From IMG/VR virus record IMGVR_UViG_2537561936_000014, positions 1 through 44,077 of that record: a stretch of 44,077 nucleotides of DNA. The stretch is one strand, 5' to 3'. A program made the position numbers. This DNA is from a virus. Taxonomy: Duplodnaviria > Heunggongvirae > Uroviricota > Caudoviricetes. Below, piece by piece: positions 41,101-44,077 of the stretch. Position 1 is the stretch's first letter. The number at the start of each line of letters is the position of its first letter.

Positions 41101-44077
41101 GATACAGACAACGACAGCGAGGAACTGGCAGCCACGCCAAAAGCCGTCAAAACCGTCATGGACGAGACGAAAACAAAAGCGCCACTGGACAGCCCGGCGT
41201 TTACCGGCACGCCCACCACACCAACCCCGCCGGACGATGCGACCGGGCTGGAGATGGCGAACGCGGCATTTGTCCGCAAACTGCTTGCCGCGCTGGTTGA
41301 CTCATCACCGGAAGCCCTGGACACGCTGAACGAGCTGGCAGCGGCGCTGGGAAATGACCCGGAGTTCGCGACAACAATCATGAACGCGCTGGCGGGTAAA
41401 CAACCACTAAGCGACGTGTTAACCGCAATCAGTAATCTGGAAGAACGGGCAGATAATCTTCTGTGCTTTAATCAGGACGGGAATGCTTCGCTGTCTCCAC
41501 TGTCAGAAAAAGCCCGGTCACTGCTGGCGCAGGCCACAGTGGAAGCCATGCGCAATGAGCTTGAGCTGAAAAGCGCAGCGGTAAAGGATATCCAGACAGA
41601 CCTTTACGACAGCACGGAAGGCCGTGTTGCGCTGCCAGGTGCATTTGGTTACGGAATGACGGACGCCGGAGCGCGTTCAATTATTGCCAGCGATATGGCG
41701 ACTGTAGCCAGAACCGCTCACAACCTGCACCCGGGACGCTATTACACCTTTGCCACACGAACGGAAGAAATAACCGGGATAACAGAAATTATCTGGCTGG
41801 ATAATGGCGGGGGCGACAAAACCAGCCAGACAGCAACAAAGCTGGTTCTGTTTTTTGGAAAAGACGGACGGATTCTTATGACCGTTCGTGGCGATAATAT
41901 CTCCGCCCCGGTCACCTGGACGAATCTGACACCACAACTTGGCAATGCAGCACAGAAGGATGCGCAGGAGAATATTTACGACCGCACCGAAGGCCGTCTG
42001 GCGATTCCCGGCATGTTTGGATTCGGGAAAGTATTTTTCATCGGCGACAGGACCGAGTTTAAAACAGAGGCCGATTTTCTCCGCTGGGTAAAAACGGCAA
42101 ATCCCGGACGCTATGCCGTTTATGCAGATACAAATGCGGTAATACAGGGCGTGCTGTTCAAGGGTACCGTTGAAATTATCTGGCCGGAACCTCAAATCAG
42201 CCATGATACGGCATATGTGGCCAAAATCATTATTTTTTACGGTATTAACGGTCATATTTATTACAATCGCTACTGGACTACCGGAGGTGGTTATCTGGTT
42301 GGCTGGGAAAACCTGAAAGTCAACGAGGCTTCACTCCGGGCACTGATTGAAACCCGAGCGCCACTGAACAGTCCGGCACTGACCGGAACGCCGTCCACGC
42401 CAACACCACCGGATGATGCAGCAGGTAATGAAATAGCCAATGCGGCGTTTGTCCGCAAACTGCTCGCCACGCTGGTTGGCTCATCACCGGAAGCCCTGGA
42501 CACGCTGAACGAGCTGGCAGCGGCACTGGGCAATGACCCGAACTTTGCGACAACCGTCACTAATGCACTGGCAGGTAAACAGCCGCTTAACGATACGTTA
42601 ACCAGTATCAGCAAGGCAGGGGTGGGACAAAACTCTCTCCTTTATTTTGGTGATAACTTTAAAGCAAAAGCAATTCCATGCAGCAACAAGGCTCGCTCAT
42701 TACTGGCACGAAACACGCCTGAATCCATGCGCGCGGAGCTTGAACTGAAAGCGGCTGCGACGATGGAACCCCAGACCGATATCCGTGACCGCACACCCGG
42801 CAGGCTGGCGCTACCGGGCGCTTTTGGCTTTGGTAAGGCATTCAGTAACACAGAAGCCCTGACATTTAACGGGCAGGCTGATTTTGCTGAATGGCTGAAG
42901 GAAGCCATGCCGGGGCGTTATGCGGTCAGTATTGCGGACTCTTCCACGCTGCTGGCTGGCACAACGAAATTTAACGGCATCATTGATGTGATGTGGTCAC
43001 CCTTTGATAACGACGAGTCAGACACAGTGCGTAAATTCAAAACGCTGCTGTGTTTTAACCAGTATTACGAAGGTGAGCACAGTATTCATCGCCTGACTTA
43101 CCGCTGGAGTGGAAACAACTGGAATGCAACAGTAAGCCCCATTATTTACGACGGCGATTCGCTGGCCTTCCTGCTGTCCAGGACGGCGGGCTCAGGCTCA
43201 TATTTCAAATACCCGGCAGTGGGTGTTCCTGTGCTGGCTGTTTATCGCGGAACAACTTCCGGGGATAAAGAAATCAATATTGGCCTGGGTGATGTGGTGC
43301 AGGGGTCACAACTGGGCGGAGTTAATCTTTCGTGCGCAATATCTTCTGCTGGGGTTGGCTCCTACAATTCCGCACCGAGTGTAGGAGCTACAGGGTACAC
43401 TTTCCCGGGGCGTTATATGGCGCTATCCGGGGTCAGGGACTCTAAAGGAATAACCGGTCGTATCTGCCTGTTTGTGCGCATCGAGTAACGGGGAATAAAA
43501 CATGAAAATCAGAGCGGTAAAGGGCATCAGAAACGCCCATTATCTTGAAAATGGTGCGGTTGACTGCGAGGTGTTATTTGAAGGTGAAACGGAATTCGTC
43601 CCGTATACCGCCATGCAGGATGATACCGCAATGACAGGCCAGCGTATCTGGGAAGAGTTACAGAGCGGCAAGTGGGGGGAAATTGCCCCATTCACCGTCA
43701 CGCCTGAACTTATCGCAGCGGCAAAAGATGCCAAACGCCAGGAAATCGAAGCCTGGCGCACAGAACAGGAGGCGCAGCCGTTCACGTTCGAATGGAACGG
43801 TCGCACCTGGAACGCTGGCCCCGACTCAATGGCCCGTCTTTATCCGGTAGTAATGGCGGCGAAATCTGATACGGCACGAACCGCCCTTGCATGGGGTGAT
43901 GCCGATAATCAACAGGTGAAACTGTCAATGCCGGAACTGGAAGAACTGGCGACAGCAATGGCGCAGGCACAGGTCGATCGCAATGACGAGATTTATCAGC
44001 GCCAGCGTGAAATGAAGGAAGAACTGAATAACCTGAATGATTTACGTTCAATCAGAGCGATGGTAATTAGTCGGTAA

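What the first reader, a model, noticed from the sequence alone, without database searches (positions are those of the whole stretch)
41170..42620. Internal segmental duplications in the 1044-aa side tail fibre gene
Two roughly 270-bp units about 1.18 kb apart are approximately three-quarters identical at the nucleotide level and share an identical 44-nt core. A second motif (LELK..AA...D.T.GR.ALPGAFGFGK) occurs three times. Repeats like these provide substrates for homologous recombination that can lengthen, shorten or shuffle fibre modules.
Basis: seen in the sequence. Interest (0 to 1): 0.5.

Follow-up and report, generated by a model that had tools for sequence, protein, structure and literature searches.

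The report
Repeated shaft modules in tail fibre gene
The repeats are real, but they are the ordinary, long-known building blocks of phage tail fibres: conserved linker units that separate variable cassettes and at which related prophages have swapped, lost or gained fibre segments.

Summary
Window 41163-41437 and 42342-42616 are 275-nt direct repeats, 1179 nt apart and in frame. They are 78% identical, with a 45-nt exact core (41301-41345 and 42480-42524). Codon-shuffled controls give nothing comparable.

The repeat is the best-kept part of a larger layout in the 1044-aa fibre (40354-43488): N-terminal anchor, coiled coil, PF03406, then A1-B1-B2-A2-B3 and a C-terminal tip. A is a ~134-aa shaft unit. 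Its 83-aa core is the same unit as 'repeated element b' annotated in phage P1 gene S, and occurs in arrays of 1-13 copies in the related proteins examined.

The duplication is old and stable. All 120 closest homologues keep A-B-B-A-B, and A1 and A2 stay distinct in each.

The repeats are nevertheless where relatives recombine. They are invariant islands between hypervariable cassettes that occur in many combinations. Fibres of 664, 787 and 1061 aa share one tip type, with clean junctions inside the A unit or the B motif.

This is a new member of a known kind and of low interest.

The parts
40354..43488 (+). Tail fibre gene, 1044 aa; identical to an NCBI E. coli protein
   Evidence: ORF list. 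P0001 is 100% identical over 100% of the length. PF08400 and PF03406 match.
40354..40752 (+). N-terminal anchor domain (aa 1-133), PF08400 'Prophage tail fibre N-terminal'
   Evidence: Pfam E=1.9e-61. PDB 9e7m 'Tail fiber protein', residues 1-93, E=1.5e-16.
40753..41064 (+). Ala/Gln-rich region, presumed coiled coil (aa 134-237)
   Evidence: Sequence composition. Aligns with the collar spike protein 7kjk over residues 1-198. The coiled-coil assignment is an inference.
41065..41184 (+). PF03406 phage tail fibre repeat (aa 238-277); conserved island
   Evidence: Pfam E=2.6e-15. 98% mean identity over 114 homologues.
41170..41418 (+). A1 core (aa 273-355): 83-aa shaft unit, first copy of the nucleotide repeat
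   Evidence: One allele class and 97% mean identity. Same unit as P1 S 'repeated element b'.
41301..41345 (+). 45-nt exact core, copy 1 (encodes SSPEALDTLNELAA)
41419..41571 (+). A1 tail (aa 356-406)
   Evidence: 55% nt identity to the A2 tail. The homology breakpoint of several relatives lies at gene nt 1218 = aa 406.
41572..41943 (+). B1 module (aa 407-530): motif 41572-41658 plus globular domain
41944..42333 (+). B2 module (aa 531-660): motif 41944-42030 (invariant island) plus hypervariable globular domain
42349..42597 (+). A2 core (aa 666-748): second copy of the nucleotide repeat
   Evidence: Many relatives lose homology at gene nt 2228-2241 = the end of this unit.
42480..42524 (+). 45-nt exact core, copy 2
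42598..42753 (+). A2 tail (aa 749-800): hypervariable cassette
   Evidence: 50% mean identity and 9 allele classes. The same tail alleles follow both A1-type and A2-type heads.
42754..43143 (+). B3 module (aa 801-930): motif 42754-42837 plus globular domain
43144..43485 (+). C-terminal tip (aa 931-1044); presumed receptor-binding end
   Evidence: phrog_2636 positions 453-568. Seven allele classes. The receptor-binding role is an inference.
43502..44077 (+). Downstream DUF4376 gene; presumed fibre chaperone
   Evidence: Pfam E=2.8e-17. The same gene follows the fibre gene in all fetched relatives. The chaperone function is an inference.

Best explanation
The repeats are the modular construction of a trimeric phage tail fibre shaft. 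The gene encodes an anchor, a coiled coil, and then A1-B1-B2-A2-B3 and a tip.

A is a shaft unit. Its 83-aa core is a very widespread fibre repeat. B is a conserved strand motif ('..YDRT.GR.A.PG.FG.G') followed by a small globular, knob-like domain.

The modules arose by old duplication and/or acquisition and are now fixed in this lineage. Because the A cores and B motifs are kept nearly invariant by protein constraint, they are islands of DNA homology between highly variable cassettes. Homologous recombination between different fibre alleles or genes, and rarely between the copies within one gene, crosses over in these islands. That reshuffles cassettes and occasionally produces shorter or longer fibres carrying the same tip.

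Shown here: the repeats, the layout, its stability, the conserved-island/variable-cassette profile, the cassette reassortment, and chimeric length variants with junctions in the repeats.

Inferred: the recombination enzymes involved, the direction of each length change (deletion or insertion), the trimeric structure, and any effect on host range.
For: Layout and significance.

Stability:
- 120 of 120 closest homologues (78-100% identical) have A-B-B-A-B.
- A1 vs A2 within one protein is 80-88% identical. Orthologous A1 copies are 92-100% and A2 copies 89-100% identical, so there has been no homogenisation.
- 38 of the 61 mismatches are at third codon positions, indicating purifying selection on the protein.

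Generality of the unit:
- 16195 representative proteins match the A1-B1 query. In the best 150, the A core occurs in arrays of 1-13.
- Layouts seen among them include atB, atBB, BatB, BatBatB, aBaB and BB.
- P1 gene S carries the unit twice in tandem, annotated 'repeated element b1/b2'.
- The A module hits 29 PHROG tail-fibre families; B2 and the C tip hit only phrog_2636.

Islands and cassettes (114 homologues):
- PF03406, A1 core, B2 motif and A2 core are 93-99% conserved with one allele class each.
- The B2 globular part has 10 classes, the A2 tail 9 and the C tip 7.
- There are 52 cassette haplotypes among 115 proteins. 35 allele-pair quartets show all four combinations across the A2 core.

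Length variants:
- ETEC4090 fibre (664 aa) is 92% identical to Rac-SA53 (1061 aa) on both sides. 357 of 385 informative sites fit a single switch from A1-side to A2-side, within a 21-nt identical stretch.
- STEC276 fibre (787 aa) switches from B2-side to B3-side inside the B motif.
- Fibres of 696 and 757 aa in lambda-like and P2-like prophages equal the window gene minus the 1179-nt unit, switching near the A/B boundary.
- 410-424-aa fibres carry the same B3+tip.

Breakpoints. Homology of relatives ends at gene nt 1218 (end of A1), 1301 and 1682 (just after the B1 and B2 motifs) and 2228-2241 (end of the A2 core).

Feasibility. Phage-by-prophage exchange was measured at 8e-7 per phage for 79% identity over 980 bp with a longest perfect stretch of 41 bp. 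Lambda x Rac stf at 88% identity also recombines, mostly through Red-beta. The minimal pairing segment is 23-34 bp (PMC3945230).

Against: - No rearrangement was observed in this gene itself or among its 120 closest homologues.
- The copies are 20-22% diverged over only about 275 nt, which is shorter than the substrates measured experimentally. Intragenic events should therefore be very rare.
- I did not find a RecT- or Red-beta-like recombinase in the prophage, but the scan was incomplete.
- The chimeric short forms cannot be polarised. A deletion by one unequal crossover and an insertion by two crossovers in the repeat give the same pattern.
- The short and long forms compared are 77-92% identical, so none is a direct parent of another.
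- The A-module model is poor (pLDDT 54).
Confidence: 0.8

Rival explanations
1. A recent intragenic duplication that is still unstable: the two 270-bp units recombine often, so this prophage population carries deletion and duplication variants of this very gene.
For: The copies are in frame (offset 1179 = 393 codons) and share a 45-nt exact run, above the minimal pairing segment. The predicted 651-aa product has the same layout as existing fibres.
Against: The copies are 20-22% diverged, with saturating third-position differences. All 120 close homologues keep five modules. Orthologous copies are much more alike than paralogous ones, so the duplication predates the family.
Confidence: 0.07
2. 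Purely structural repetition. The similarity reflects only protein constraint on a generic fibre repeat, and the repeats play no special part in recombination. Mosaic boundaries fall there only because conserved sequence makes boundaries invisible elsewhere.
For: The unit is found in many thousands of unrelated fibres. It is even 76/89 nt identical in a mycobacteriophage gene, where shared codon preference plus amino-acid identity may suffice. Mismatches are mainly synonymous.
Against: Single-switch chimeras with junctions inside the repeats. All-four-combination tests across the islands. Experimental recombination in stf homology of similar quality. Apparent breakpoints will always be assigned to conserved stretches, so this rival is only partly separable from the main explanation.
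Confidence: 0.12
3. Programmed diversification: the repeats are a template/variable pair of a diversity-generating retroelement, or crossover sites of an invertase system like Cin/Min/Gin next to P1/Mu fibre genes.
For: P1 carries the same unit about 150 nt upstream of cixR. K-12 Rac has pinR next to stfR/tfaR.
Against: The repeats are direct, not inverted, and there are no convincing inverted repeats in 39000-44077. The mismatch spectrum shows no adenine bias. No invertase or reverse transcriptase gene lies between the fibre genes and the window end; the window ends at the chaperone stop codon.
Confidence: 0.01

Closest known systems
Phage P1 (and p15B) tail fibre gene S, 'repeated elements b1/b2'. 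Annotated in NC_005856 and M81956. From my own knowledge, the source is Sandmeier, Iida & Arber 1992, J Bacteriol 174:3936, listed as reference 73 in PMC3945230.
   Same: It is the same 74-83-aa unit (APL.SP.LTG.PTAPT...ALV.SSPEALDTL.ELAAALGNDPNFATT..NALAGK) present twice in one fibre gene. A2 is 83% identical in nucleotides to b2 over 131 nt.
   Different: In P1 the two copies are tandem (222 nt each, 63% identical) and lie just upstream of the Cin invertible segment. Here they are 1179 nt apart, separated by two knob modules, and there is no inversion system.
Lambda side tail fibre Stf / PF08400 'prophage tail fibre N-terminal domain' family
   Same: N-terminal domain (Pfam 1.9e-61; PDB 9e7m E=1.5e-16), a PF03406 repeat, and one A-core unit in lambda stf at 70% nt identity.
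   Different: The genomic setting differs: the gene follows Baseplate_J and a first fibre/chaperone pair, not gpJ/lom. The downstream gene is DUF4376, not a PF02413 Tfa. K-12 StfR shares only the N-terminus and PF03406 and has no A or B modules.
Rac-SA53 / phiP27-type prophage second tail fibre ('tail3', ALP46863.1)
   Same: Same prophage type (94% nt identity over 90% of the last 24 kb). Same fibre up to gene nt 2241 at 90% identity, with A-B-B-A layout.
   Different: From the end of the A2 core onward, Rac-SA53 has a different tail, B3 and tip cassette.
Mosaic tail-fibre evolution by exchange at conserved motifs. From my own knowledge: Haggard-Ljungquist et al. 1992; Sandmeier 1994, Mol Microbiol 12:343; Tetart et al. 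1998 for T-even gp37/38. The first two are listed as references 72 and 74 in PMC3945230. Relaxed homologous recombination is described in PMC3945230.
   Same: Conserved short segments flank variable receptor-binding cassettes, and exchange occurs between unrelated temperate phages. The same cassettes appear here in Rac-like, lambda-like and P2-like prophages.
   Different: None in principle. This is one more example, with a specific A/B module grammar.
Knob domains of R-type pyocin and myovirus fibres (PDB 6cl6, 6cu2, 5m9f, 5nxh)

Membership tests
PF08400-type (lambda Stf-like) prophage tail fibre | N-terminal PF08400 domain above the gathering score | tested here: met
   206.4 bits against a cut-off of 26.6. 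PDB 9e7m E=1.5e-16.
PF08400-type (lambda Stf-like) prophage tail fibre | PF03406 phage tail fibre repeat | tested here: met
   56.2 bits against a cut-off of 22, aa 238-277.
PF08400-type (lambda Stf-like) prophage tail fibre | Side-fibre setting: gene downstream of gpJ/lom of a siphovirus tail, followed by a PF02413 Tfa | tested here: not met
   Upstream are Baseplate_J (36423-37661), a 244-aa gene, a 503-aa fibre and a Caudo_TAP chaperone. Downstream is DUF4376. A relative with the same tip does sit after gpJ/lom (L007).
Fibres carrying the P1 'element b' / A-core repeat | One or more copies of the ~75-83-aa unit APL.SP.(F/L)TG.PT.PT...LDTLNELAAALGNDP.FATT..NALAGK | tested here: met
   Two copies, aa 273-355 and 666-748. 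An HMM built from them finds both P1 b1 and b2. Alignment.
Diversity-generating retroelement target | Template/variable repeat pair differing at adenines, with a nearby reverse transcriptase | tested here: not met
   No adenine bias among the 61 mismatches. No reverse transcriptase among the ORFs scanned.
Invertase (Cin/Gin/Min/Pin) switchable fibre | Inverted crossover sites flanking alternative C-terminal segments, plus an invertase gene | tested here: not met
   Only weak, short inverted repeats. A single tip and chaperone, and the window ends at 44077. Sequence beyond the window was not testable.
Pyocin/myovirus fibre knob domain | Fold match of the globular part of B to solved knob domains | tested here: inconclusive

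The most novel reading that the evidence does not exclude
The A-core DNA, especially the 45-nt run of 15 identical codons and the ~89-nt stretch that is 76/89 identical even in mycobacteriophage fibre genes, may be conserved beyond what the protein requires. That would mean it is maintained as a recombination linker (selection for evolvability). The resulting gain or loss of A/B modules would then tune fibre length (664, 787 or 1061 aa with one tip) to the thickness of the host's surface polysaccharide.
Probability: 0.1. Interest if true: 0.55.

Novelty: new member of a known kind. Interest (0 to 1): 0.2.

Why it matters
It matters little for basic biology. Modular, mosaic tail fibres with conserved exchange points have been described since about 1990, and this protein is already in NCBI.

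The practical value is modest. The A cores and B motifs mark natural, in-frame junctions at which tips and shaft modules have been exchanged among Rac-like, lambda-like and P2-like prophages. Such junctions are the kind of information used to design chimeric fibres for host-range engineering (PMC11338833 describes lambda Stf chimeras). The natural 664/787/1061-aa series with one tip type is a ready-made set for asking whether shaft length affects adsorption.

Tried and rejected
- **DGR template/variable pair:** rejected. The mismatch spectrum has no adenine bias.
- **Invertible segment or shufflon:** rejected. No convincing inverted repeats and only one tip.
- **RNA element:** no Rfam family matched in 38000-44077.
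- **Concerted evolution or gene conversion between A1 and A2:** not seen at protein level. Paralogues are 80-88% identical and orthologues 89-100% in all 120 homologues. The 45-nt identical run is only weakly unusual: by my rough estimate, with about 60% of conserved codons identical, such a run somewhere in the unit has a probability of order 0.04.
- **ETEC4090 and OkiPb01715 as simple 1179-nt deletions of the window allele.** The BLAST span arithmetic suggested this.
  - ETEC4090 is instead a chimera of a Rac-SA53-type gene, with its crossover in the A tail.
  - OkiPb01715 and OkiPb01690 are only 77-83% identical to the window gene.
- **K-12 StfR as the closest relative:** rejected. It has no A or B modules.
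- **A-module monomer structure:** too poor to use (pLDDT 54), so no fold search was run on it.
- **NCBIfam:** no family for A, B or the tip.
- **Phage recombinase in the window:** none recognised in the ORFs scanned. The 823-aa early protein has only an Rv2179c-like exonuclease domain. The scan was not exhaustive.
- **Literature search for the lambda Stf insertion-point motif 'MDETNR'** (from my memory of patent literature): no occurrence in the library.

Full report
**Context.** The window is a complete prophage. It runs from a lambda-type integrase (572-1690, minus strand) through terminase, portal, a Baseplate_J protein and two fibre/chaperone gene pairs, ending at the stop codon of a DUF4376 gene at 44077. 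Its last 24 kb are 94% identical over 90% of their length to Escherichia phage Rac-SA53, and they also match phiP27. The gene in question is 40354-43488 (+), 1044 aa. An identical protein is on record for E. coli in NCBI (P0001).

**Observation.**
- The repeat finder reports 41171-41435 and 42350-42614 as a 265-nt direct repeat, 80% identical, 1179 nt apart.
- My dot-plot extends it to 41163-41437 and 42342-42616 (275 nt, 78%).
- The dot-plot shows three further off-diagonal segments: the same diagonal further on, and diagonals at offsets 372 and 807.
- The longest exact run is 45 nt, at 41301-41345 = 42480-42524.
- Twenty codon-shuffled versions of the gene never reach the threshold: best 29/45, against 45/45 in the real gene.
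- The offset is 393 codons, so the copies are in frame.

**Anatomy.** Protein self-comparison shows that the nucleotide repeat is only the best-preserved part of a larger layout.
- aa 1-133: PF08400 anchor.
- aa 134-237: Ala-rich, presumed coiled coil.
- aa 238-277: PF03406.
- aa 273-406: A1, made of a core (273-355) and a tail (356-406).
- aa 407-530: B1.
- aa 531-660: B2.
- aa 666-800: A2.
- aa 801-930: B3.
- aa 931-1044: tip.

A1+B1 aligns with A2+B3 at 51% identity (E=3e-63). B1/B2 and B2/B3 are 35-42% identical (E=8e-18 and 1.4e-22).

'LELK' is the end of the A tail, and so is missing before B2.

**What the modules are: the A core.**
- It is a generic fibre unit. A search of 1.8 billion representative proteins with A1-B1 gives 16195 hits. 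In the best 150, the A core occurs 1-13 times per protein.
- It matches 29 PHROG tail-fibre families.
- Phage P1 gene S contains it twice in tandem, annotated long ago as 'repeated elements b1/b2'.
- Lambda stf has one copy.
- A solved mycobacteriophage collar fibre (PDB 9d93) carries its LDTLNELAAALG.DPNFATT part.
- A monomer AF2 model of A is poor (pLDDT 54), as expected for an obligate trimer segment. It predicts an extended start followed by helices.

**What the modules are: B.**
- B is rarer; the one B copy scanned (B2) matches only one PHROG family, phrog_2636.
- In an AF2 model the motif is disordered, but residues 33-125 form a confident small alpha/beta domain.
- I read B as a knob-like shaft decoration. 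This is a moderate inference.

**Age and stability.**
- All 120 best homologues (78-100% identical; E. coli, E. marmotae, Salmonella) have A-B-B-A-B.
- Within each protein A1 and A2 are 80-88% identical. A1 copies across proteins are 92-100% identical and A2 copies 89-100%.
- 38 of the 61 nucleotide differences are at third codon positions. Only 41 of 68 conserved residues use the same codon.
- The duplication is therefore old, the copies evolve independently, and the layout is stable in this lineage.
- In its 3' half, A2 is as similar to P1 b2 (83%) as to A1 (85%). Part of the A1/A2 similarity is thus simply that of the unit everywhere.

**Recombination at the repeats: islands and cassettes.** Along 114 full-length homologues, the conserved segments and the variable cassettes alternate.

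| Segment | Mean identity to the window protein | Allele classes |
|---|---|---|
| PF03406 | 98% | 1 |
| A1 core | 97% | 1 |
| B2 motif | 99% | 1 |
| A2 core | 93% | 1 |
| B2 globular part | 71% | 10 |
| A2 tail | 50% | 9 |
| C tip | 74% | 7 |
| N-terminal domain | 85% | 5 |

These cassettes occur in 52 combinations among 115 proteins. Many allele pairs show all four combinations: 35 quartets across the A2 core. The same A-tail alleles follow both A1-type and A2-type heads.

**Recombination at the repeats: breakpoints.** DNA homology of E. coli relatives to the window gene ends at module edges:
- nt 1218: end of A1.
- nt 1301 and 1682: just after the B1 and B2 motifs.
- nt 2228-2241: end of the A2 core.

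**Length variants.**
- ETEC4090 fibre (WP_064226431.1, 664 aa). It lies in the same uspF-ompN prophage site and is about 92% identical to Rac-SA53 'tail3' (1061 aa) on both flanks. Of 385 sites that distinguish the A1 side from the A2 side of Rac-SA53, 357 fit one switch. The switch lies in a 21-nt identical stretch of the A tail.
- STEC276 fibre (WP_313954463.1, 787 aa). It switches from the B2 side to the B3 side inside the YDRT.GR.A.PG motif.
- One tip type therefore sits on shafts with one, two or three B positions.
- The window's own tip type (B3 + tip) is also found on a 696-aa fibre after gpJ/lom in a lambda-like prophage, and on a 757-aa fibre after gpD in a P2-like prophage. Both equal the window gene minus the 1179-nt unit, with the switch near the A/B boundary.
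- The same tip type also occurs on 410-424-aa fibres.
- Direction cannot be decided. One unequal crossover (deletion) and two crossovers (insertion) leave the same pattern.

**Mechanism.** The most likely mechanism is ordinary, relaxed homologous recombination.
- De Paepe et al. (PMC3945230) measured lambda x Rac stf exchange at 88% identity (longest perfect stretch 49 bp). It was mainly Red-beta dependent.
- They measured 8e-7 recombinants per phage at 79% identity over 980 bp (longest stretch 41 bp). Recombinants were undetectable at 67% identity (longest stretch 11 bp).
- Minimal pairing segments are 31-34 bp for RecA and 23-27 bp for Red-beta.
- The window's repeat (78-80% identical, 275 nt, longest stretch 45 nt) lies near the lower edge of that range. 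An intragenic event is possible but rare.
- Exchange with other alleles, which are 93-99% identical in the islands, should be much more frequent.
- I recognised no phage recombinase in the ORFs scanned.

**Alternatives rejected.** A DGR (no adenine bias), an invertase system (no inverted repeats, one tip) and an RNA element.

**Comparison and verdict.**
- The gene belongs to the PF08400 fibre family by its N-terminus and PF03406. It does not sit in a lambda-type side-fibre setting, and it differs from K-12 StfR, which lacks A and B.
- Internal repeats, conserved exchange points and horizontal swapping of fibre cassettes are classical knowledge: P1/p15B repeated elements, P2 gene H, Sandmeier 1994 and the T-even gp37/38 motifs. 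These citations are from my own knowledge; three of them appear in the reference list of PMC3945230.
- The finding is real and correctly sensed, but ordinary. It is a new member of a known kind, with a tidy A/B module grammar and a natural series of length variants as its only mildly new content.

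Noticed in passing
window 41287-41375: This 89-nt piece of the A1 core is 80-85% identical in nucleotides to minor-tail/collar-fibre genes of 276 Mycobacterium phages, plus Gordonia, Microbacterium and Rhodococcus phages. For Solon gp4 it is 76/89 nt, peptide AALVDSAPETLNTLNELAAALGDDPNFAT. The local GC content is 62-67%, against 49% for the window. This may be amino-acid identity plus shared GC-ending codons, or something more.
   Followed up: partly
homologues P0003, P0023, P0028 and others; P0271 and others: Many NCBI records name this fibre family 'shikimate transporter'. This is evidently a propagated misannotation.
   Followed up: no
window 38268-40330: A first fibre gene (503 aa) with a Caudo_TAP chaperone lies directly upstream, so the prophage carries two fibre/chaperone pairs. 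The fibre has only sub-threshold hits to Gp34_trimer and CBM_6. This first fibre also varies in length among relatives; the upstream gene spans are 1011-1554 nt.
   Followed up: no
window 34539-36413 (minus strand): A reverse-oriented block sits inside the tail/baseplate gene cluster. It contains an AntA/AntB antirepressor (34539-35102) and two ORFs without Pfam hits. About 600 nt of it is 79% identical to antirepressor genes of many Stx-converting phages.
   Followed up: no
window 40884-41381 (-) and 42291-42614 (-): Long antisense ORFs (165 and 107 aa) overlap both repeat copies and are themselves similar to each other (…SLPSAAASSFSVSRASGDE.TS.ASSLRTNAA…). They are most likely a by-product of the GC-rich Ala/Leu codons of the A core; there is no evidence that they are genes.
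   Followed up: no
L002 (E. coli STEC308, NZ_CP091020.1 1319879-1321843): The homologous fibre gene is annotated as a pseudogene missing its C-terminus. Homology to Rac-SA53 stops at nt ~1960, about 320 nt before the DUF4376 gene.
   Followed up: partly
P0289, P0278, P0298, P0308, P0320 (410-424 aa): These 'tail fiber proteins' consist only of PF03406-A-B-tip. P0289 starts MKGSNASTTEKGLVQL, which matches window aa 231 onward with M in place of L. They could be genuine short fibres, split genes or mis-called starts.
   Followed up: no
window 1990-4461 (minus strand): An 823-aa early-region protein has, as its only Pfam match above threshold, a C-terminal Rv2179c-like 3'-5' exonuclease domain. 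From my own knowledge, this is the position where Rac proper has RecE. No RecT-sized partner was seen.
   Followed up: no
L011 (E. coli K-12 Rac, stfR b1372): K-12 StfR (1120 aa) shares only the N-terminal domain (41%) and the PF03406 region with the window fibre. It has no A or B modules and is followed by tfaR and the invertase gene pinR.
   Followed up: yes
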